A stretch of 64,000 bases of DNA from a virus: positions 1 to 64,000 of IMG/VR virus record IMGVR_UViG_3300032893_000017, one strand, 5' to 3'. The position numbers were made by a program, and so were the translations under genes. The notes under the pieces were generated by a model, which saw nothing but the letters and a program-made list of their open reading frames with translations, made no database searches and was not told where the DNA came from. Position 1 is the first letter of the stretch; each line of letters begins with the position of its first letter. Positions 24,179 through 40,564 of the stretch are shown one piece after another.

Positions 24179-24206
24179 AAAAAAAGCTAGGCAATTTAGC
24201 CTAGCT
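24179..24206 (-). terminator. intrinsic terminator ending the small-gene operon
   Basis: AGCUAGGC-UAAAUU-GCCUAGCU followed by a U-tract. Confidence 0.85.
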
Positions 24207-25751: not shown

Positions 25752-25783
25752 CTCCTTGTAAAATAATTATAATTTAGAATCTT

Positions 25784-25832
25784 AAAGATTCAATTAAAGG
25801 CTCTATGTTTCAAGAGCCTAAAATTTAATCTT
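25784..25832 (-). ncRNA. conserved intergenic stem-loop element, copy A (unidentified)
   Basis: AAGAUUAAAUU-UU-AGGCUCU-loop-AGAGCCU-UU-AAUUGAAUCUUU. Confidence 0.7.
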
Positions 25833-26202
25833 AAATTATTTCTCCAGCTTCAATTTCATTCTCTGTAAGATCACTTTCTTTGATCTTTCTTTGTAACCAA
25901 TATTTGAATTCTAAAGCAACTTCCTCTGATACAGCTCCAATATGCCAATCATAAGATTTCTGATTTCTAAACTCTTCGACAGAAGGATAACCTCCATGAT
26001 ATAATTTAGTTTCTTTATAATCATATAAGGTTACAACATGACCTTTTTCAGATTCCAGTATCCATTTTGTACTTACTTTATATCCATCTGATACAGGTAA
26101 ACAACTTCCTAAAATTTTTGTCAAAATTGAATAAGAATTTTTATAATTTGTTTGGAAACTTGTTCCACAAGCATCTGCTTTTAAATTCACTTTAAATTCC
26201 AT
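25831..26202 (-). CDS. conserved phage hypothetical protein
   Basis: GTSFQ...DGYKV..KW...VTLYDYK...WHIG pattern; RBS. Confidence 0.65.
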   Translation of the reverse strand: MEFKVNLKADACGTSFQTNYKNSYSILTKILGSCLPVSDGYKVSTKWILESEKGHVVTLYDYKETKLYHGGYPSVEEFRNQKSYDWHIGAVSEEVALEFKYWLQRKIKESDLTENEIEAGEII

Positions 26203-26242
26203 AAAATCCTCCTTTTAAAATAATTTAGTTTTAGAATCCATA

Positions 26243-26291
26243 AAAGATTCAATTAAAGCCTTCAGTTGTTTGAAGGCTGAAATTCAATCTT
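26243..26291 (-). ncRNA. conserved intergenic stem-loop element, copy B
   Basis: AAGAUUGAAUU-UC-AGCCUUCA-loop-UGAAGGCU-UU-AAUUGAAUCUUU. Confidence 0.7.
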
Positions 26292-26507
26292 CTAAACTAT
26301 ATCATTTACAATAGCATCTACCTTAATGATTATTACTTTTGTCTCATACAAATTAGTAACTGGCTGCAATACTACATAGCATTCATTGTCTTGTAAGTTA
26401 TAAGTATAATCTAGTTCTTTATTTCTATCAAAGATTTTTATCTCTTTATAGTCTCTACTTATTTCTCCTACATAATAATCTTCTCCTTTAAACTTAATTT
26501 TTTCCAT
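26292..26507 (-). CDS. hypothetical protein
   Basis: ORF with AGGAGG RBS. Confidence 0.6.
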   Translation of the reverse strand: MEKIKFKGEDYYVGEISRDYKEIKIFDRNKELDYTYNLQDNECYVVLQPVTNLYETKVIIIKVDAIVNDIV

Positions 26508-26664
26508 TTAATATTTTCCTCCTTTTAATATCTTTTCTAACATCTGAATAATCTCCGCATTTTTTGAATGAACAGGTTTTATCTTTATTACTTTTATCTT
26601 CTAATTTCAATACACAGCAATCATCTGTTGTTATGAATACACATAATCTTTTTGATCTTCTCAT
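26494..26664 (-). CDS. small Cys-rich hypothetical protein (not in track)
   Basis: MRRSKRLCVFITTDDCC...; fills the gap; AAGGAG RBS. Confidence 0.5.
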   Translation of the reverse strand: MRRSKRLCVFITTDDCCVLKLEDKSNKDKTCSFKKCGDYSDVRKDIKRRKILNGKN

Positions 26665-26843
26665 GTTTTATCTCCTTTAAGATACAATTTATTTTTATTT
26701 TTTAAAATTGCCAAACATTTTGAGCATAAAAATTTTTTATTTTCTATCTTTAAAAAACTTTCTACTTCTATACTATTTCCATTTCCATTATGACATCTGC
26801 AAATTATACTATTTGTTCTTATACTGAAAGCATGTGTTTTCAT
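26661..26843 (-). CDS. hypothetical protein (His/Cys, CxxC)
   Basis: ORF with RBS. Confidence 0.55.
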   Translation of the reverse strand: MKTHAFSIRTNSIICRCHNGNGNSIEVESFLKIENKKFLCSKCLAILKNKNKLYLKGDKT

Positions 26844-26865
26844 CTTTATTTCCTTTAAGTTTTAT

Positions 26866-27237
26866 CTAATCTTTCTTCTTTTTATATTTCAAAATAATTT
26901 CTAAAGCATTGTATATCTCTTCATAATTATTTTCATTTACTTCGATCAAATTTGCAAGACTATTTATTTTTGATTTAACAGTTTCAATGTTTTTCTGTTT
27001 TATTATTTCTGGAGTTACTTCACCAAAATAAATAGAATCAAAACTTCCAAATCTTCCAGAGCTTCTTGAACCATACTGGTATCCTGAATTTTTTTCAATT
27101 TTATATTCTTTTTCTCTTACAACTACAATATGAAATTTTTCAGTTTGTCTTACTATCGTATAGATTCTTATATTTCCAGAATATTTTTCAGTAGTATAAA
27201 CTTTGTCTCCAATTTTTAAATGACTTAAATCTCTCAT
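26866..27237 (-). CDS. hypothetical protein (LKIGDKV SH3/KOW-like start)
   Basis: Strong AAGGAGGTG RBS and its own promoter. Confidence 0.65.
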   Translation of the reverse strand: MRDLSHLKIGDKVYTTEKYSGNIRIYTIVRQTEKFHIVVVREKEYKIEKNSGYQYGSRSSGRFGSFDSIYFGEVTPEIIKQKNIETVKSKINSLANLIEVNENNYEEIYNALEIILKYKKKKD

Positions 27238-27263
27238 TCAATTCACCTCCTTATTTTAAAATC

Positions 27264-27293
27264 ATTATACAATCTAAAAAATAAAAATTAACC
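27264..27293 (-). promoter_or_regulatory. promoter GGTTAATT-N13-TTGTATAAT
   Basis: Same motif and spacing at 30263-30292. Confidence 0.65.
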
Positions 27294-27294
27294 T

Positions 27295-27486
27295 TCAAAT
27301 AATAATATCTTTTTTCATGTTATATTTTTTGTAGATATGTTTCATAACTTCACTTTGCTCTGTGTTGGGTTGTTCATCTCTTTTGGCGTTACATAAAGGA
27401 CATTCATTATATATAGAAGACTTTACATAATTTTCTTTGCACTTGCAATTCCAAAAATTAGGATTAAGTTCAATTCTCTTTTTCAT
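27295..27486 (-). CDS. small zinc-binding hypothetical protein
   Basis: WNCKC...CPLC. Confidence 0.6.
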   Translation of the reverse strand: MKKRIELNPNFWNCKCKENYVKSSIYNECPLCNAKRDEQPNTEQSEVMKHIYKKYNMKKDIII

Positions 27487-27499
27487 ATATCTTGTCTCC

Positions 27500-27826
27500 T
27501 TAATTATATAAAGTTTTTATCCAGCATCTTTTGTTTGTATCTCCCCAATCATAAAGTTCTTCCATTAAATAATTAAACTCTTCTACTGCTTCTCTATTTT
27601 CTTTGTAATAATCTGGATTACAGTTTTCTTTCAGTTCTTCAAATTCAATAATTAAATTATCAATCTTATCTTCATCATTTAATGGTTTTATTTTCTTCAA
27701 TCCTGTAATAACACAATCACAAAGTTTTGAAGTTTCTTCAAAAGTAATTTCATCTTCATCTTTGTCTTTTGTTAATTCCCAAACTCCATGAATGTCTAAA
27801 GTAGCTTTCCAATTTAAATTTTTCAT
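27500..27826 (-). CDS. conserved phage hypothetical protein
   Basis: WKATLDI...FNYLMEELYDWGD..RCWI pattern. Confidence 0.65.
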   Translation of the reverse strand: MKNLNWKATLDIHGVWELTKDKDEDEITFEETSKLCDCVITGLKKIKPLNDEDKIDNLIIEFEELKENCNPDYYKENREAVEEFNYLMEELYDWGDTNKRCWIKTLYN

Positions 27827-27838
27827 TTGTTTTCTCCT

Positions 27839-27902
27839 TTGATCTATCTCATCAGTTGCAAGTGATCAATCTTGCAAGACTCCCAGTTAAGGGAGTTTCG
27901 AA
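27839..27902 (-). ncRNA. hammerhead ribozyme, type II with pseudoknot
   Basis: UC-GAAA-CUCCC(uuaacu)GGGAG-UC-UUGCAAG(auugauca)CUUGCAA-CUGAUGA-GA; loop I UUGAUC pairs with 3' GAUCAA. Confidence 0.88.
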
Positions 27903-27903
27903 T

Positions 27904-28056
27904 TTATTTAACTTTCTTTTCCAATATCTTTTTCATATCAGGACTTATTACTGCATCTGGATCAAGTAAATCTTTTATGATCTGCTGTTTTTCAGTTTCA
28001 TTGTTTGCACTGTGTAATAATACTGCAACTTCAAGGTCATTGTAATAATATTTCAT
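27904..28056 (-). CDS. small hypothetical protein (not in track)
   Basis: 50 aa MKYYYNDLEV...; AAGGAGG RBS. Confidence 0.55.
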   Translation of the reverse strand: MKYYYNDLEVAVLLHSANNETEKQQIIKDLLDPDAVISPDMKKILEKKVK

Positions 28057-28057
28057 A

Positions 28058-28234
28058 CTATTCCTCCTTATATATTTCTGATAAATATTTTATTTCTGCA
28101 CAATAACCACAATGTGCATCATAATATTTATCATTTGGAGCAAGGTATGGTTTATATCTTTTATCAATTTTTTCTTCTGGCTTTGCTCCAACTACTTTCC
28201 TATAATTTTTTAAAAATTCTTTACAAGTATTCAT
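28058..28234 (-). CDS. small hypothetical protein (not in track)
   Basis: 58 aa MNTCKEFL...HCGYC; AAGGAGG RBS. Confidence 0.55.
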   Translation of the reverse strand: MNTCKEFLKNYRKVVGAKPEEKIDKRYKPYLAPNDKYYDAHCGYCAEIKYLSEIYKEE

Positions 28235-28449
28235 AAGGCTCCTCCTTTATACTTTACATGGTGCATTATTGAAAAACTTGAATATTTTAATATTTCATCA
28301 AATTTTTCTTTTTCTAAAACATAACAGGGATTTACTTTATAACCATTTCTTCTTATTTCTGAAATAAAATTACTTTTTGTTTTACAGTCTCGTTCTAAAA
28401 ATAATTTCTCTTTAGTTTTTTTATCTGTAACCATTGCTTTGAAAATCAT
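28231..28449 (-). CDS. hypothetical protein
   Basis: ORF with AGGAGG RBS. Confidence 0.6.
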   Translation of the reverse strand: MIFKAMVTDKKTKEKLFLERDCKTKSNFISEIRRNGYKVNPCYVLEKEKFDEILKYSSFSIMHHVKYKGGAL

Positions 28450-28462
28450 AAAATCCTCCTAT

Positions 28463-28514
28463 AAAAGATTCAATTAAATCCACTCAATTAAGAGTGGACA
28501 AAGTTTAATCTTTT
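28463..28514 (-). ncRNA. conserved intergenic stem-loop element, copy C
   Basis: AAAAGAUUAAACUU-UG-UCCACUC-loop-GAGUGGA-UUU-AAUUGAAUCUUUU. Confidence 0.7.
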
Positions 28515-28696
28515 ATAAACTTAATTATTTCCATTCTGATGTTCTCATGCATTTCATGGCTTGTTGTTTCTATTGCTGTATTCTCTTTTTCATTCCACAC
28601 TACAAATGTTCCTTTTTCTCTGTCATGCTTTAGAACCTTGAATGTCTCCATTGGATCGCTTATAAAATAAAATCTAGCTCCAACTAAATCTTCCAT
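28505..28696 (-). CDS. hypothetical protein
   Basis: ORF with AAGGAG RBS; TAATG coupling. Confidence 0.6.
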   Translation of the reverse strand: MEDLVGARFYFISDPMETFKVLKHDREKGTFVVWNEKENTAIETTSHEMHENIRMEIIKFIKD

Positions 28697-28887
28697 TATT
28701 CAACTCCTTTTGACTGATAAATTAAAATACCTTTATTGATACATTCTTGTAAATCTTCTTCTTTTTCACTTTTATATGCTATTCCACCAATTATATGTAT
28801 CTCATACATTAGCTTCATTACTTTATGTTTACTAATTGATATTTTATTACCTGAAGGTACATGCAAATAAATTCCTGTTTTTATCAT
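28696..28887 (-). CDS. hypothetical protein (true start MIKTGIYL, not 29124)
   Basis: AAGGAGGAG RBS before ATG 28887; the longer track ORF overlaps another gene and a ribozyme. Confidence 0.6.
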   Translation of the reverse strand: MIKTGIYLHVPSGNKISISKHKVMKLMYEIHIIGGIAYKSEKEEDLQECINKGILIYQSKGVE

Positions 28888-28904
28888 AATCTCCTCCTTA
28901 TTTA

Positions 28905-28966
28905 TTGCTGACTTTGAACAGCTTGTTTTCACAAGTGCATTACAGGGATTGCTCCCTGTCATCTGC
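28905..28966 (-). ncRNA. twister ribozyme, circularly permuted (open at P5 position)
   Basis: GCA-GAUGA-CAGGGA(gcaa)UCCCUG-UAA-UGC-AC-UUGU(gaaa)ACAA-GCUG(UUCAAAGU)CAGC-A. P1-P4 and both pseudoknots (UCA/UGA, AC/GU) are satisfied. Confidence 0.9.
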
Positions 28967-29158
28967 CTAGGCATATTTAAGATCATTAAGTAACCACATA
29001 GCTTCTGATTTTTTTTCAAAATAATCTTTATACTCATCATATTCTTCTTTTTTATCATAAGAACTTGCTGGTTTTTCAAAAGCTTGTATTTCTTGTAATT
29101 CACCCTTAACTTTTCCATTGTCAAAAAATTTAGATATAACCAAAAAATATGTTTTCAT
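28967..29158 (-). CDS. hypothetical protein (start MKTYFLV)
   Basis: AAGGAG RBS before ATG 29158; flanked by two ribozymes. Confidence 0.6.
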   Translation of the reverse strand: MKTYFLVISKFFDNGKVKGELQEIQAFEKPASSYDKKEEYDEYKDYFEKKSEAMWLLNDLKYA

Positions 29159-29192
29159 ATTTCTCTCCTTGATCATTTCTGATCTCATATTT

Positions 29193-29244
29193 ATTGCTGA
29201 CTCCCTTTCGGGAGTTTCGTCTATTTAAGACTCATCAGAGCAAC
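29193..29244 (-). ncRNA. hammerhead ribozyme, type I
   Basis: GUUGCU-CUGAUGA-GUCU(uaaau)AGAC-GAAA-CUCCC(gaaa)GGGAG-UC-AGCAAU; full core with GUC cleavage triplet. Confidence 0.93.
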
Positions 29245-30200
29245 TATTTTTCTAAAATCTTTATTATTTCTTTTGCTTGTTCAATATTTACTTTCAATCC
29301 ATTTATAGATATTTCATAATCTAATTTATCTTCTTCAACAGGCTTTATTAAATCAACTTTTATTTTTTGGTCTTTAATAGTAATACTATATTCGTCTATC
29401 TCATAACCTGATCTTTCATGTCTTCTTCCTCTATAATAAGGATTTAATTTATATTCTTTTTTGTGTTCTACTGTAATATTTAAAATCTCTTCAAGCTTTG
29501 TTTTTGTAGAATCAATATTTTTTAAGTTATCTACTTCTTCTTTTTTCTTTTCTTTTTCTTTCGCAATTTTATCATCTACCAATTTTTTGAACGAAGAAAT
29601 TAAAGACTCTAACTTCGTAAATCTTTTTGTTTTATAATCTGATATAGAATCATTGAAACTGTATCCTGCAAAATGTGAATCCATTGACCATTTACTATTC
29701 GAAACATAATGCTCTGATACATATATTTTATTATTCTTGTATTCAACAATTACTCTATAACCTCTTAAAAAGTTATCTTCATTAAAACTTTCAACTGAAG
29801 TTTTAATTCCACTTTCCTGTAAATTATCGATTAATTTTTTTACATTATGTATCCAACATTTATCATAAGCTTTTTTTGCTTTTTCTAGTTTTACTTTTCT
29901 ATCATTTTCTTTTTTAGCTTCTAATAATGATTTATATTCTTCATACAGTACAGTTAGATCCAATTCAATTCCTAATTCTTTTAATGATTTTTCAAAAGAC
30001 TCATCAAGGAATTTTGAATTTATAAAATTACTTTTTTCTGAATTCCAATCCATAAAAAATTTAATTTCTTTTACTGCATTATTAATCTTAACACTAATAA
30101 GTGCATTGTCTGTAACATATTCCTCATTTATTCTTTTAGAAACAATAAATTCAAATTCGTTCACTTTAGAAGGTTTTAAAATTTGTTTTGTAGTATCCAT
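29244..30200 (-). CDS. hypothetical protein, first gene of small-gene operon
   Basis: 318 aa K/E-rich ORF; RBS; preceded by a promoter. Confidence 0.65.
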   Translation of the reverse strand: MDTTKQILKPSKVNEFEFIVSKRINEEYVTDNALISVKINNAVKEIKFFMDWNSEKSNFINSKFLDESFEKSLKELGIELDLTVLYEEYKSLLEAKKENDRKVKLEKAKKAYDKCWIHNVKKLIDNLQESGIKTSVESFNEDNFLRGYRVIVEYKNNKIYVSEHYVSNSKWSMDSHFAGYSFNDSISDYKTKRFTKLESLISSFKKLVDDKIAKEKEKKKEEVDNLKNIDSTKTKLEEILNITVEHKKEYKLNPYYRGRRHERSGYEIDEYSITIKDQKIKVDLIKPVEEDKLDYEISINGLKVNIEQAKEIIKILEK

Positions 30201-30262
30201 AATATTCTCCTGTTAAATAATCTAATTAAAAAGATTCATACGAATCTTCCCTTTGTAATAAT

Positions 30263-30292
30263 ATTATACAAATGAGATTGGATTAATTAACC
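30263..30292 (-). promoter_or_regulatory. promoter GGTTAATT-N13-TTGTATAAT
   Basis: Duplicate of the motif at 27264-27293. Confidence 0.65.
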
Positions 30293-37930: not shown

Positions 37931-40564
37931 CTATTCTCCTTTTTCTATACACTGTAATAATTTATCATAATATTGCTGATCTTTAATTATCCCTTTCTTT
38001 ACTTTATCTTCTGTGTCCCATCTTTTTTTTGTTATTTGTTTTCCCAAAACAAGTTCTTTATCTGAAGTAGACTTAAAAACTAAAGACTTTTGCATCTCCT
38101 GCTTAAATGCTCTCATAAATATATCTTTTAATTTTTCTAAATCACTTTTTGTAAAGTCTGAAAGGCTACCTGTAGGAGCATCTGTTACTCTTACTTCTGT
38201 TTTTTTGTTTTTTAGCAATACATCATGCAATAGCTGATTCCCAAATCTTGCTACCATTTCAGAATCATCCGCGTAATATTTACTATTACTGCTGCTTAAA
38301 AACTTTTGATAAGACTTTGTTTTCTTAACTTCTTTTACAAAAAGAACACGATCTTGATTCCAGATAGGGTTGCCGTCTTTATATCCTAATACTCTTTCTG
38401 TGTAGAACAAATGATGAAAGTATTCGTGAACAAAAGAATTCTTGAATTTAGATCCTATTGTTATACTTTTATTTGAGGGACTGTAAAAAGCTCGTGCTAC
38501 CTTATTATAAGAAATCTGTGCATAATCTTTTTGAAAAGATATTGATAAATTAGTGTGATTTGCAAAACCTAAATCTTTTAAAAGTTCTAATTGATACATA
38601 ATATTACACCATGCTTTTTTATTTTCAGGTGTAATATTATTTTGGATGCTTACTTTGAAGTTCTTATTAGCATAATCATACATTTCCTCTATTTTCATTT
38701 TCTCAAATTTTTTTATAGAAATCATTTTTTCAATATTCTCTAGAGTTTCATTTTCTTTCTTATCTGTCTCTTCATAAATATATTTTGCATTCTTGCCTTC
38801 ACCTATCTTTTTAATATACTTATGATTTATCTTTGATTTAAAGAATACTATTTGAGTTCCAATTGACTTAATTAGTATATCTATCTTTTCCATAATTGCA
38901 TTTATTGGTTGATCACTCTTAATCATTTCTGAATACTTGCTTCCTATTTCTTTTATCTTTTTGAGTATTTTATGCACCATTACTGGAGATATTTTTATTG
39001 CTGTTGCTATTTCTTTTCCTGTTTGCTTCTTTGTTAAAAGATCTACTACTTTCTTTTCATTCTTTGTTTTTAATTCTGATTTTATTTTACTTAAAAAGTC
39101 TTTTACGTTTTTAGTTCTTTCCTTCTGTTCTTGTTCATACTGTTCATTTGTTTTGTATTCCTTTGATATTAAATCTATTTTATCAATATCACTTTCTACA
39201 TTCTCGTCTAATGCAGGTGTATTAAGAATCTTTTCAAAACGTTTGTCTAGAATGTTGTCTCTGTCCACTCCCTGTATACCTACATACTCTCCAGTTTTAG
39301 GGTCTTTTATTTCTCCATGCTTCATATATCCTTTTATGTAAGTGTATAAGTAAGTAGAAAAAGTATTTGGAGGATATTTTTTAAGATTGAAATTTCTTAT
39401 TGCATGTATCATTCCCAAATTGCCATTTTGATATGCATCCTCTACATCTATCTTTCCCGTTTCATAATCCATAAGAAGATTTTTATTACGCTGAATTACT
39501 GCTGTGATATATTTTTGATTCTCTACAATAAAATTAGCTCTTGTTGCCCTATCTTCTTTTAACGTATTTATTTGTTCTGCTGATATATTGCCTATATTTA
39601 TTCCTGTTCTAAGTGTATATGATTTTCCTTCCTTTGTTATTCCTTCTACTATCTTTCCACTTTCATCTCTATACCAATATCTGTAATTTCCTTTACCTCC
39701 CTGTCTACGAATGTATTTATGTCCAGATTTCATTATTCCAGTAATATTTTTGATAAGATTGAAAAATCCTAGTTTAATTGACTTTGCCATCTCCAAAGCA
39801 TGTTGTTTTACTACAAACTCTTTTCCTGCTTCGTCTACTAATTTTACTATCCCGTCTTTTATTTCTTTTATTGTAGCAACTAATCCTCTTCCTTGGTGTT
39901 GATGAATACCTTCTTTTGATTTTGCATCTGGTTTGATTCTAACTTTTGCTCCTATTTTAATTTCTGGTTTTTGTTCCCCGTCTTTCTTTTGTGTTGTTTT
40001 CTTTTCTGCATACTGTTTTGCTTTTTCATAGTCATTTGTGATTTTTGTTTTGCCATCCCAATAGAAACCATCTTTGAATTCCAATCCTTCTATTCGTTTG
40101 GGTTCTTGTTTAGCCTTAGGCTGGTCACCTTTAGCTTCTTCATAAATATATTTATCACCTTCCTTACGAAGATATTTATGAGACATTATATTTTTAAAAA
40201 AGACTAAATTAACTTTTTTTTTTAAGTCTGTTAAAGATTTTAAGAAGCCTATTATTACATTTGGTTTAGATTTTTTTGTTAGTCCTGCTTCTGAAAGTGC
40301 AATCGCAATAGCCTGCTTTCTATTCGTAACTTTATCACCACTTCCAGACCTTAGTTTCTTTCTTTTAAATTCCCCCATGACAACATGCACCTTGTCTTGT
40401 TTGTTTTTTAGCTTTTTTCTTTTCTTAGCTCCAGCACCTAATTTATCTGGGTGCTTGTATGCTTCTTCTACTGTCATTTTTTCTGCAGCATCTACAATAT
40501 ACTTTGGAAGTGCTTCCTGTTCGTTTCCTATTTTGGATTTAATTAAAAAAACTAATTTCGTCAT
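37931..40564 (-). CDS. polyvalent protein: DUF6496-like + KOW-like + sigma70-family factor + zincin metallopeptidase
   Basis: KVHVVMGEFK...RKQAIAIALSEAG; VEDAYQNGNLGMIHAIRNF...FSTYLYTYI (region 2); TGKEIATAIKISPVMVHK (region 4 HTH); FVHEYFH...EMVAR. Confidence 0.8.
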   Translation of the reverse strand: MTKLVFLIKSKIGNEQEALPKYIVDAAEKMTVEEAYKHPDKLGAGAKKRKKLKNKQDKVHVVMGEFKRKKLRSGSGDKVTNRKQAIAIALSEAGLTKKSKPNVIIGFLKSLTDLKKKVNLVFFKNIMSHKYLRKEGDKYIYEEAKGDQPKAKQEPKRIEGLEFKDGFYWDGKTKITNDYEKAKQYAEKKTTQKKDGEQKPEIKIGAKVRIKPDAKSKEGIHQHQGRGLVATIKEIKDGIVKLVDEAGKEFVVKQHALEMAKSIKLGFFNLIKNITGIMKSGHKYIRRQGGKGNYRYWYRDESGKIVEGITKEGKSYTLRTGINIGNISAEQINTLKEDRATRANFIVENQKYITAVIQRNKNLLMDYETGKIDVEDAYQNGNLGMIHAIRNFNLKKYPPNTFSTYLYTYIKGYMKHGEIKDPKTGEYVGIQGVDRDNILDKRFEKILNTPALDENVESDIDKIDLISKEYKTNEQYEQEQKERTKNVKDFLSKIKSELKTKNEKKVVDLLTKKQTGKEIATAIKISPVMVHKILKKIKEIGSKYSEMIKSDQPINAIMEKIDILIKSIGTQIVFFKSKINHKYIKKIGEGKNAKYIYEETDKKENETLENIEKMISIKKFEKMKIEEMYDYANKNFKVSIQNNITPENKKAWCNIMYQLELLKDLGFANHTNLSISFQKDYAQISYNKVARAFYSPSNKSITIGSKFKNSFVHEYFHHLFYTERVLGYKDGNPIWNQDRVLFVKEVKKTKSYQKFLSSSNSKYYADDSEMVARFGNQLLHDVLLKNKKTEVRVTDAPTGSLSDFTKSDLEKLKDIFMRAFKQEMQKSLVFKSTSDKELVLGKQITKKRWDTEDKVKKGIIKDQQYYDKLLQCIEKGE

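What the first reader, a model, noticed from the sequence alone, without database searches (positions are those of the whole stretch)
25784..29244. Small-gene operon punctuated by an array of self-cleaving ribozymes and conserved hairpins
Seen: within 3.5 kb, six intergenic gaps hold a structured RNA that starts at or overlaps the upstream stop codon and ends just before the next RBS. These are hammerhead I (29193-29244), twister (28905-28966), hairpin C, hammerhead II (27839-27902), and hairpins B and A. Established: hammerhead and twister ribozymes self-cleave, leaving 2',3'-cyclic phosphate and 5'-OH ends. Inference: the polycistronic early transcript is cut into short, separately stabilised messages without host RNases. 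The gene at 28967-29158, with a ribozyme on each side, would be excised as a ~257-nt RNA with ligatable ends (possible circular mRNA). The elements may also act as recombination anchors for shuffling small-gene cassettes.
Basis: partly seen in the sequence, partly recalled or inferred. Interest (0 to 1): 0.92.

Follow-up and report, generated by a model that had tools for sequence, protein, structure and literature searches.

The report
Ribozyme-punctuated accessory operon in a phage
Three genuine self-cutting RNA motifs (two hammerheads and a twister) and three copies of a phage-specific hairpin sit between the small genes of an add-on operon in an uncultured 97-kb wetland phage; this layout has been described in phages since 2011, so it is a clean new example and not a new phenomenon.

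Summary
Rfam supports a type II hammerhead (27838-27903, 42.6 bits, above gathering), a type-P5 twister (28907-28967, 37.5 vs 37.6) and a type I hammerhead (29193-29244, 28.4 vs 34, E 5e-4). All lie on the coding (-) strand, start at a stop codon and end before the next RBS. All catalytic cores are intact. The twister's three departures from consensus are compensated inside pseudoknots T1/T2. The type II hammerhead has the family's 6-bp loop I/tail pseudoknot. Hairpins A-C are one 49-nt module with a conserved lower helix and a covarying upper stem. They match no catalogued RNA and occur only in this phage.

Syntenic relatives lack the ~6-kb stretch with its own promoter-like element and terminator. 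"Early" timing, "no host RNases", circular mRNA and recombination anchors are unsupported: there is no RNA data, and the phage has no RNA ligase, RtcB, RNase III or recombinase.

Clustered ribozymes flanking single phage genes, the processing idea and the circle idea are all in Perreault 2011 and later reviews. This scan has noted the same layout on other DNA (107 notes, at least 92 genomes). Verdict: new member of a known kind, with low to moderate interest. The hairpin module is the only unexplained part.

The parts
30263..30292 (-). Promoter-like element GGTTAATT-N14-TGTATAAT at the upstream edge of the accessory cluster
   Evidence: A 32-nt identical copy lies at genome position 90491-90462 and a related copy at 27293-27264. 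All three minus-strand copies of TTGTATAAT in the window are in intergenic gaps of this cluster. Function is inferred.
30231..30248 (-). Leader hairpin AAGAUUC-GUAU-GAAUCUU followed by UUUAAUU. It reuses the lower-helix words of hairpins A-C.
   Evidence: Read directly from the sequence.
29244..30200 (-). First gene of the unit, 318 aa, no family match
   Evidence: ORF list and Pfam/PHROG scans. No relatives found in viral contigs.
29193..29244 (-). Type I hammerhead ribozyme. Predicted cut at C29199^A29198. Its first base is the G of the upstream TAG stop.
   Evidence: Rfam Hammerhead_1, 28.4 bits, E 5e-4. CUGAUGA, GAAA and GUC cores are intact, all three stems are present, and the MFE fold is the hammerhead fold with z -4.1.
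29171..29184 (-). Small hairpin GAUCA-GAAA-UGAUC just upstream of the RBS of the 63-aa gene
   Evidence: Folds.
28967..29158 (-). 63-aa orphan gene bracketed by hammerhead I and the twister. It would be released as a 257-nt RNA (29198-28942).
   Evidence: ORF and RBS. Matches only itself in 5.8 billion proteins. Length confirmed.
28907..28967 (-). Type-P5 twister ribozyme with P3. Predicted cut at U28942^A28941. Its first base is the G of the upstream TAG stop.
   Evidence: Rfam Twister-P5, 37.5 bits vs gathering 37.6. P1, P2 (3 bp), P3, P4, T1 (3 Watson-Crick pairs), T2 (2 Watson-Crick pairs), the G-C and U.A extension of P4, the A-A pair and the sheared A.G pair are all present, judged against the rules in PMC5408937.
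28505..28887 (-). Two overlapping 63-aa genes (28887-28696 and 28696-28505)
   Evidence: No family match.
28464..28512 (-). Hairpin module C. Its 5' arm overlaps the last codons and the stop of the upstream gene, and the next RBS follows directly.
   Evidence: 72.7 bits with model R1.
27904..28449 (-). Three tightly packed small genes (72, 58 and 50 aa)
27838..27903 (-). Type II hammerhead ribozyme. Predicted cut at C27878^U27877. Loop I UUGAUC (27869-27864) pairs with the 3' tail GAUCAA (27844-27839), which abuts the next Shine-Dalgarno.
   Evidence: Rfam Hammerhead_II, 42.6 bits, above gathering 37. Pseudoknot located. It matches the family feature described in PMC3088659.
27295..27826 (-). 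108-aa gene (phrog_6318, unknown function) and a 63-aa CxxC gene
27264..27293 (-). Second promoter-like element, GGTTAATT-N14-TGTATAAT, in an unstructured 57-nt gap
   Evidence: (z +0.26).
26292..27237 (-). Four small genes (123, 60, 56 and 71 aa)
26243..26291 (-). Hairpin module B. It starts right after the TAG stop and is followed by a 45-nt spacer shared with module A.
   Evidence: 72.5 bits.
25831..26202 (-). 123-aa gene between modules B and A
25784..25832 (-). Hairpin module A. It starts within the TAA stop. Its 3' arm plus spacer also reads as TTGAAT-16-TATAAT.
   Evidence: 73.1 bits.
24185..24206 (-). Strong intrinsic terminator (8-bp stem with 5 G-C pairs, then a run of seven U) closing the accessory cluster

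Best explanation
The locus is a self-contained accessory operon of about 6 kb, from a promoter-like box near 30.29 kb to a terminator at 24.2 kb. It sits in a variable slot of the head region of a 97-kb contractile-tailed phage.

Three of its stop-to-RBS gaps hold active-looking self-cleaving ribozymes of known classes. As the RNA is made, they would cut at C29199^A29198, U28942^A28941 and C27878^U27877. This splits the message into four pieces:
(i) leader plus the 318-aa gene;
(ii) a 257-nt single-gene RNA;
(iii) a 1,064-nt five-gene piece;
(iv) the rest.
Each upstream piece ends in a hairpin flush with a 2',3'-cyclic phosphate. Each downstream piece starts with a 5'-OH. Neighbouring genes would therefore become independent in decay and translation.

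Three further gaps hold a phage-specific 49-nt hairpin. Its conserved AAGAUU/AAUCUU lower helix is most likely read at the RNA level by a host double-strand-specific nuclease or another protein, or it acts as a leaky terminator. On that reading it does the same punctuation job without catalysis.

Shown: the motifs, their cores, their pairings and their positions. Inferred: cleavage, the consequences for stability, and the role of the hairpins.
For: Rfam hits for three ribozyme classes, all sense-strand and all intergenic. Intact catalytic cores and stems. The twister's three deviations from consensus are compensatory in T1/T2 (against PMC5408937). The type II hammerhead has a 6-bp loop I/tail pseudoknot, as the family description requires. 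The products end or start in flush hairpins. The hairpin module shows 6 doubly compensated pairs in 3 copies. It scores 72-73 bits on the sense strand against 36-42 on the antisense, and has a sense-only G.U pair. The same helix words recur with a 4-nt loop in the leader, so arm spacing varies from 4 to 37 nt. That spacing range fits an RNA helix, not a dimeric DNA operator. Cluster boundaries are set by a duplicated promoter-like box and a terminator. Clustered hammerheads in prophages were shown to cleave in about 2-kb polycistronic transcripts in vitro and in E. coli (PMC3088659).
Against: There is no RNA evidence at all: only the source DNA run holds this sequence. Hammerhead I is below Rfam's gathering score and shows no obvious loop-loop or pseudoknot contact, so it may be slow at cellular Mg2+. 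Twister P2 has 3 pairs instead of 4, although P2 imperfections were well tolerated in PMC11662667. No relative carries these elements, so selection on them cannot be shown by comparison. Internal promoter-like boxes mean that downstream genes may not depend on processing. The role of the hairpins is the weakest step.
Confidence: 0.7

Rival explanations
1. The ribozymes are active but are neutral passengers. They arrived with horizontally acquired gene cassettes and persist because cleavage between genes is harmless, not because processing is useful.
For: The whole cluster is absent from syntenic relatives. The flanked genes are orphans. The one recurrent gene family (phrog_6318) has a homologue in Sinorhizobium phage phiN3 with no room for a ribozyme upstream. 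The published record also says the flanked genes are not constant (PMC3088659).
Against: The placement is exact from stop codon to RBS in all three cases. Three different ribozyme classes occupy the same kind of slot. All cores and tertiary pairs are intact, which argues for maintenance by selection.
Confidence: 0.12
2. Hairpins A-C are leaky intrinsic terminators or attenuators that grade transcription along the operon. Their conserved arms are simply the A-tract and U-tract.
For: The upper stem is G+C-rich with 7-8 bp and is followed by UUUAAUU and more U. Module A is followed by a good TTGAAT-16-TATAAT promoter match. The leader hairpins behind the duplicated promoter box are also followed by U-runs.
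Against: The consensus terminator scan did not call them, although it called the true operon-end terminator with its run of seven U. The arms are conserved in exact sequence, including G and C, and pair with each other, which A/U tracts need not do. Modules B and C have no usable promoter after them.
Confidence: 0.3
3. The 257-nt piece between hammerhead I and the twister is joined by a host RtcB-type ligase into a circular, exonuclease-proof mRNA.
For: The two cuts would leave the 5'-OH and 2',3'-cyclic-phosphate ends that RtcB joins. The idea of spliced or circular products was raised for clustered hammerheads in PMC3088659.
Against: The phage encodes no RtcB or RNA ligase. The ends derive from two different ribozymes, so reverse ribozyme ligation is excluded. 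The predicted fold leaves the first 11 nt free and does not juxtapose the termini. The passage read in PMC3088659 (cut off in the excerpt) indicates the authors could not show such products.
Confidence: 0.04
4. The ribozymes and hairpins are DNA-level cassette boundaries (recombination anchors) that let small genes be shuffled, in the manner of integron attC sites.
For: The hairpin has an attC-like layout, with conserved paired arms, a small mismatch and a variable top. A 14-nt identical string, GUCAGCAAUAAAUA, follows both hammerhead I and the twister. The modules are conserved although their neighbouring genes are unrelated.
Against: The genome has no tyrosine or serine recombinase. There is no GTTRRRY-type core. 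No other phage or metagenome contig has the module. Relatives show absence, not rearrangement. The sense strand is favoured over the antisense.
Confidence: 0.05

Closest known systems
Clustered hammerhead ribozymes flanking single genes or short gene blocks in prophages (Perreault et al. 2011, PMC3088659)
   Same: Several self-cleaving ribozymes lie within 1-2 kb, each between consecutive small genes of a phage transcript, and the flanked genes are not conserved. Type II hammerheads carry a loop I/3'-tail pseudoknot. The processing and circular-RNA ideas are both stated there.
   Different: Here the array mixes a twister with two hammerheads. It lies in a virulent-looking uncultured 97-kb phage, not a prophage. 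Further slots are filled by a non-catalytic hairpin module.
Twister ribozyme, type P5 (Rfam RF02684; class of Roth et al. 2014 as reviewed in PMC5408937 and PMC6154101)
   Same: P1, P2 and P4 plus the optional P3, the double pseudoknot T1/T2, the U^A scissile step, the extended P4 and the sheared A.G pair.
   Different: P2 has 3 pairs, not 4. T1 and T2 use A-U pairs where the consensus has G-C, which puts the score 0.1 bit under Rfam's gathering threshold.
Association of self-cleaving ribozymes with each other and with phage-like genes in bacteria, the basis on which pistol, hatchet and twister-sister were discovered (review PMC6765202)
   Same: Different ribozyme classes are neighbours in one gene cluster near phage genes, and the proposed role is processing of polycistronic transcripts.
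   Different: Nothing substantive. This is another instance.
RNase III processing hairpins between phage T7 early genes (from general knowledge, not tested here)
   Same: Intergenic hairpins of about two helical turns with small internal loops. They are conserved in part among copies and positioned between cistrons, so that the cut leaves a 3' hairpin on the upstream message.
   Different: There is no sequence resemblance. Cleavage is untested, the host is unknown, and the phage encodes no RNase III.

Membership tests
Hammerhead ribozyme, type II (RF02276) | Score at or above Rfam's gathering threshold | tested here: met
   42.6 bits against 37.
Hammerhead ribozyme, type II (RF02276) | Core CUGANGA, GAA, A15.1-U16.1 and C17 (H), with core-adjacent pairs 10.1-11.1 and 1.1-2.1. 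Stems I and III are closed and stem II is open. | tested here: met
   Alignment and sequence. Stem II has only 2 pairs, as in the family consensus.
Hammerhead ribozyme, type II (RF02276) | Pseudoknot of 4 or more pairs between loop I and the tail 3' of stem II (present in the majority of members, PMC3088659) | tested here: met
   UUGAUC 27869-27864 pairs with GAUCAA 27844-27839, 6 pairs.
Hammerhead ribozyme, type I (RF00163) | Score at or above Rfam's gathering threshold | tested here: not met
   28.4 bits against 34, E 5e-4 for the region and 7.9e-3 for the window. The model treats most of the stem III hairpin as an insertion. This is a model cut-off, not a structural feature of the class.
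Hammerhead ribozyme, type I (RF00163) | Complete catalytic core and three stems with core-adjacent pairs (acceptance rules of PMC3088659) | tested here: met
   CUGAUGA, G10.1-C11.1, GAA, A15.1-U16.1, C17 and A1.1-U2.1 are all present. Stems have 5-6, 4 and 5-6 pairs. The MFE fold equals the hammerhead fold.
Hammerhead ribozyme, type I (RF00163) | [quoted passage not shown] | tested here: inconclusive
   No convincing pseudoknot or loop-bulge contact was seen. The A/U-rich flanks allow only trivial pairings.
Twister ribozyme, type P5 (RF02684) | Score at or above Rfam's gathering threshold | tested here: inconclusive
   37.5 bits against 37.6. The model cannot score the pseudoknots, which is where the deviations are compensated.
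Twister ribozyme, type P5 (RF02684) | Double pseudoknot: T1 (L1 with L4, 3 Watson-Crick pairs) and T2 (L2 dinucleotide with two bulged L4 bases) | tested here: met
   UGA 28961-28959 pairs with UCA 28917-28915. AC 28936-28935 pairs with GU 28912-28911. Rules taken from PMC5408937.
Twister ribozyme, type P5 (RF02684) | U^A scissile step next to P1, conserved A, sheared A.G between T1 and P2, and P4 extended by G-C and U.A | tested here: met
Twister ribozyme, type P5 (RF02684) | P2 of four Watson-Crick pairs | tested here: not met
   Three pairs; the fourth position is G opposite A. PMC11662667 reports no dependence of cleavage on P2 length or imperfections, so this is not disqualifying.
All three ribozymes | Site-specific self-cleavage | not testable with these tools
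   No RNA run holds the locus.
Any Rfam family, for hairpins A-C | Match to a curated covariance model | tested here: not met
   No match at E up to 10 apart from one chance sRNA hit at E 4.
Intrinsic (Rho-independent) terminator, for hairpins A-C | G+C-rich stem-loop followed directly by a U-rich tract | tested here: inconclusive
   The stem is adequate. The tract UUUAAUUG is borderline and the consensus scan did not call it, while it did call the terminator at 24206-24185.
Integron attC-type recombination site, for hairpins A-C | Partner integrase and a conserved R'/R'' core | tested here: not met
   No tyrosine or serine recombinase in the genome, and no GTTRRRY core in the arms.

The most novel reading that the evidence does not exclude
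The 49-nt AAGAUU/AAUCUU hairpin module is an undescribed RNA-processing signal that substitutes for a ribozyme in the same stop-to-RBS slot. It would be either a recognition site for a specific, possibly phage-encoded, endoribonuclease or RNA-binding protein, or, less likely, a very small new self-cleaving motif. Phage operons would then mix catalytic and protein-dependent punctuation interchangeably.
Probability: 0.15. Interest if true: 0.6.

Novelty: new member of a known kind. Interest (0 to 1): 0.3.

Why it matters
The biological purpose of clustered self-cleaving ribozymes in phages is still open fifteen years after they were described. This locus is compact: three ribozyme classes and a non-catalytic hairpin share one kind of slot within 3.5 kb, and the unit is bounded by its own promoter-like box and terminator. 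That makes it a convenient construct for a direct test of whether cleavage changes the stability or translation of neighbouring genes. It does not change what is known. Its value is as a clean test case, plus a record of one small uncatalogued hairpin motif.

Tried and rejected
(1) Relatives. The 318-aa gene gave no relatives in viral contigs. Four contigs with about 60% capsid identity carry no ribozyme or hairpin module. They share only the three genes just upstream of the cluster and the capsid-module genes downstream.

(2) Phage GenBank collection by blastn: no match.

(3) The 15-mer TTTAATTGAATCTTT in viral contigs gave more than 117 single hits, which are chance matches or unrelated terminators.

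(4) The full hairpin pattern gave 0 hits in viral contigs. In metagenome contigs it gave 56 hits that score 20-38 bits with the model, against 72-73 for the real copies, and lie in unrelated, often coding, contexts. I judged these to be chance.

(5) Gene-family association. The ribozyme-flanked 63-aa gene is an orphan. The 108-aa gene has 37 distant representatives, but alignments were too divergent for locus retrieval. The only annotated phage homologue has no upstream gap.

(7) No RNA holder is listed for the locus; one DNA run was found, probably the source.

(8) A 17-nt near-copy of the hammerhead II 3' part near 31.30 kb lies in a coding frame and lacks core base C3, so it is not a ribozyme.

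(9) I first read TTGTATAAT as a canonical extended -10. It is not, because the TG abuts TATAAT. I now call it only a promoter-like box.

(10) RAGATH-1 hammerhead membership was rejected: 31.1 bits against 56.3.

Full report
**What the window is.** The window is the first 64 kb of a 97,318-bp IMG/VR virus record with direct terminal repeats, rated complete. PHROG matches to large terminase, portal, major head protein and tail sheath show a contractile-tailed phage. All long ORFs are on the minus strand, and G+C is 30%. The only public run holding the locus is a wetland DNA metagenome, probably the source.

**The three ribozymes are real motifs at the stated places.**
- At gathering thresholds, Rfam finds Hammerhead_II at 27838-27903 (42.6 bits against 37).
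- With permissive filters it adds Twister-P5 at 28907-28967 (37.5 bits against 37.6) and Hammerhead_1 at 29193-29244 (28.4 bits against 34; E 5e-4 for the region, 7.9e-3 for the window).
- Nothing else in the 97 kb matches any Rfam family at E up to 1.
- All three are on the coding strand and in intergenic gaps. Two begin with the G of the upstream TAG stop and the third begins right after a TAA stop.
The RNA between the first two is 257 nt.

**Checks beyond the covariance scores.**
- Hammerhead I meets the acceptance rules of Perreault et al.. It has CUGAUGA, GAA, A15.1-U16.1 and C17, and all core-adjacent pairs. Its minimum-energy fold is the hammerhead fold, with z -4.1.
- Hammerhead II has the very short stem II of its family. 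It also has a 6-bp pseudoknot between loop I (27869-27864) and the 3' tail (27844-27839). That paper describes this feature for most type II members and shows it is needed for fast cleavage.
- For the twister I took the tertiary rules from Gebetsberger and Micura and tested them base by base. T1 has 3 Watson-Crick pairs and T2 has 2. The G-C and U.A extension of P4, the A-A pair and the sheared A.G pair are all present.
- The three positions where this twister departs from the Rfam consensus (two in T1, one in T2) are each matched by a change in the partner base. The model cannot score these pairs, which explains a score 0.1 bit under threshold.
- The one blemish is a 3-bp P2 where 4 are usual. 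A high-throughput assay of natural twisters found no dependence of cleavage on P2 length or imperfections.

**The three hairpins are one module.** It is the 3' arm of a longer hairpin. AAGAUU.AAYU pairs with AAUU.AAUCUU to form a lower helix that is conserved in sequence, with a purine-purine mismatch and a 2x2 U-rich loop. The 7-8-bp upper stem differs completely between copies but always pairs.
- On the three-row alignment, 96% of cells pair and six pairs change on both sides. No shuffle of 500 reaches this, and the signal disappears when partners are slid.
- A covariance model built from the copies finds only those three in the whole genome and none in the relatives. The sense strand scores about twice the antisense, helped by a G.U pair that exists only in the sense RNA.
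- No Rfam family matches.
- The module was not found elsewhere. There were zero hits in viral contigs. The 56 pattern hits in metagenomes score far lower and sit in unrelated contexts.
- The flanking genes are not paralogous, so the modules are not relics of gene duplication.
- The helix words recur as a short hairpin (AAGAUUC-GUAU-GAAUCUU) in the leader at 30248-30231. Arm spacing therefore ranges from 4 to 37 nt, which fits recognition of a folded RNA helix better than a dimeric DNA operator.

**Context.** The cluster is a lineage-specific insertion. In two related contigs (61% capsid identity), the three small genes just upstream (31234-30321) and the capsid-module genes downstream (from 23132) are conserved and syntenic. 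The stretch between them is 2.9 kb of unrelated genes there, against 7.2 kb here, and no gene from 30200 to 23116 has a counterpart.
- The insertion starts with a promoter-like box, GGTTAATT-N14-TGTATAAT (30292-30263). A 32-nt identical copy lies at 90.49 kb and a related copy at 27293-27264. A further TTGTATAAT lies at 24831-24823.
- It ends at a strong terminator at 24206-24185.
- The 877-aa gene upstream carries a Sigma70 region 2 domain, so which polymerase holoenzyme reads these boxes is open.
- 'Early' expression is therefore possible but not shown, and the cluster may be read from more than one start.

**Mechanism.**
- Shown: the motifs, cores, pairings and positions.
- Inferred from established ribozyme chemistry: cleavage leaves a 2',3'-cyclic phosphate and a 5'-OH.
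- Each predicted upstream product ends in a hairpin flush with the cut (hammerhead stem III or twister P1). The product downstream of hammerhead II begins with the stem I hairpin. This fits protection of the new ends and uncoupling of neighbouring cistrons.
- This is the hypothesis already in the literature. Clustered hammerheads from three bacteria cleaved within about 2-kb transcripts in vitro, and one set also cleaved in E. coli.
- For the hairpins I favour an RNA-level processing or protection signal read through the conserved lower helix. A leaky terminator is a close rival.
- The phage encodes no RNase III, so a nuclease would have to come from the host or be an unrecognised phage protein.

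**Ideas not supported.**
- Circular mRNA: the phage has no RtcB or RNA ligase. The ends come from two different ribozymes, and the fold does not juxtapose them.
- Recombination anchors: the phage has no recombinase, and no rearranged relatives were found.
- The only oddity pointing that way is a 14-nt identical string after both hammerhead I and the twister, which remains unexplained.

**Novelty.** The arrangement, the processing idea and the circle idea are all in Perreault et al. 2011, and they are restated in a 2019 review. Earlier work in this scan lists 107 notes of the same layout in at least 92 other genomes. This is a tidy new member of a known kind. The hairpin module is uncatalogued but so far has three copies in one phage.

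Noticed in passing
window 29201-29188 and 28912-28899 (- strand): An identical 14-nt string, GUCAGCAAUAAAUA, follows both ribozymes. In hammerhead I it spans G16.2-U16.1-C17 plus the 3' strand of stem I. In the twister it spans the end of L4 plus the 3' strand of P4. It occurs nowhere else in the window. It could be chance, a shared leader, or a junction left by recombination.
   Followed up: partly
window 30292-30263 and genome 90491-90462 (outside the window): A 32-nt identical promoter-like block, CTGGTTAATTAATCCAATCTCATTTGTATAAT, lies at two distant loci, each followed by a leader hairpin and a U-run. A third related copy lies at 27293-27264. This looks like a phage promoter family, possibly read by the phage's own sigma-like protein.
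   Followed up: partly
window 37931-40564 (-): The 877-aa protein carries a Sigma70 region 2 domain (25.1 bits, cut-off 24) and a DUF6496. The neighbouring 802-aa protein has inorganic pyrophosphatase and ADP-ribosyltransferase-like domains. The 1244-aa protein has an SNF2/DEAD helicase domain. These are multi-domain proteins next to the portal gene.
   Followed up: partly
window 31310-31290 (-): UGACGAGAUAGAUCAAA, a 16-of-17 match to the 3' core and tail of hammerhead II, lies inside the coding frame of a 77-aa gene. It lacks core base C3 and the rest of the motif. It is either a coincidence or a relic.
   Followed up: yes
window 30554-30321, 27486-27295, 26843-26661, 28234-28058 (-): Several of the small proteins carry paired CxxC motifs (small zinc-ribbon-like proteins). 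The one at 30554-30321 is conserved in the related contigs.
   Followed up: no
window 25752-25781 and 26209-26238: Modules A and B share a further spacer of about 45 nt (GAUUCUAAA...UAAAUUAUUUUA.AAGGAG) between hairpin and RBS, so they are about 95-nt repeats. Module C lacks it and runs straight into the RBS. In C the 3' arm can alternatively pair with the Shine-Dalgarno region.
   Followed up: partly
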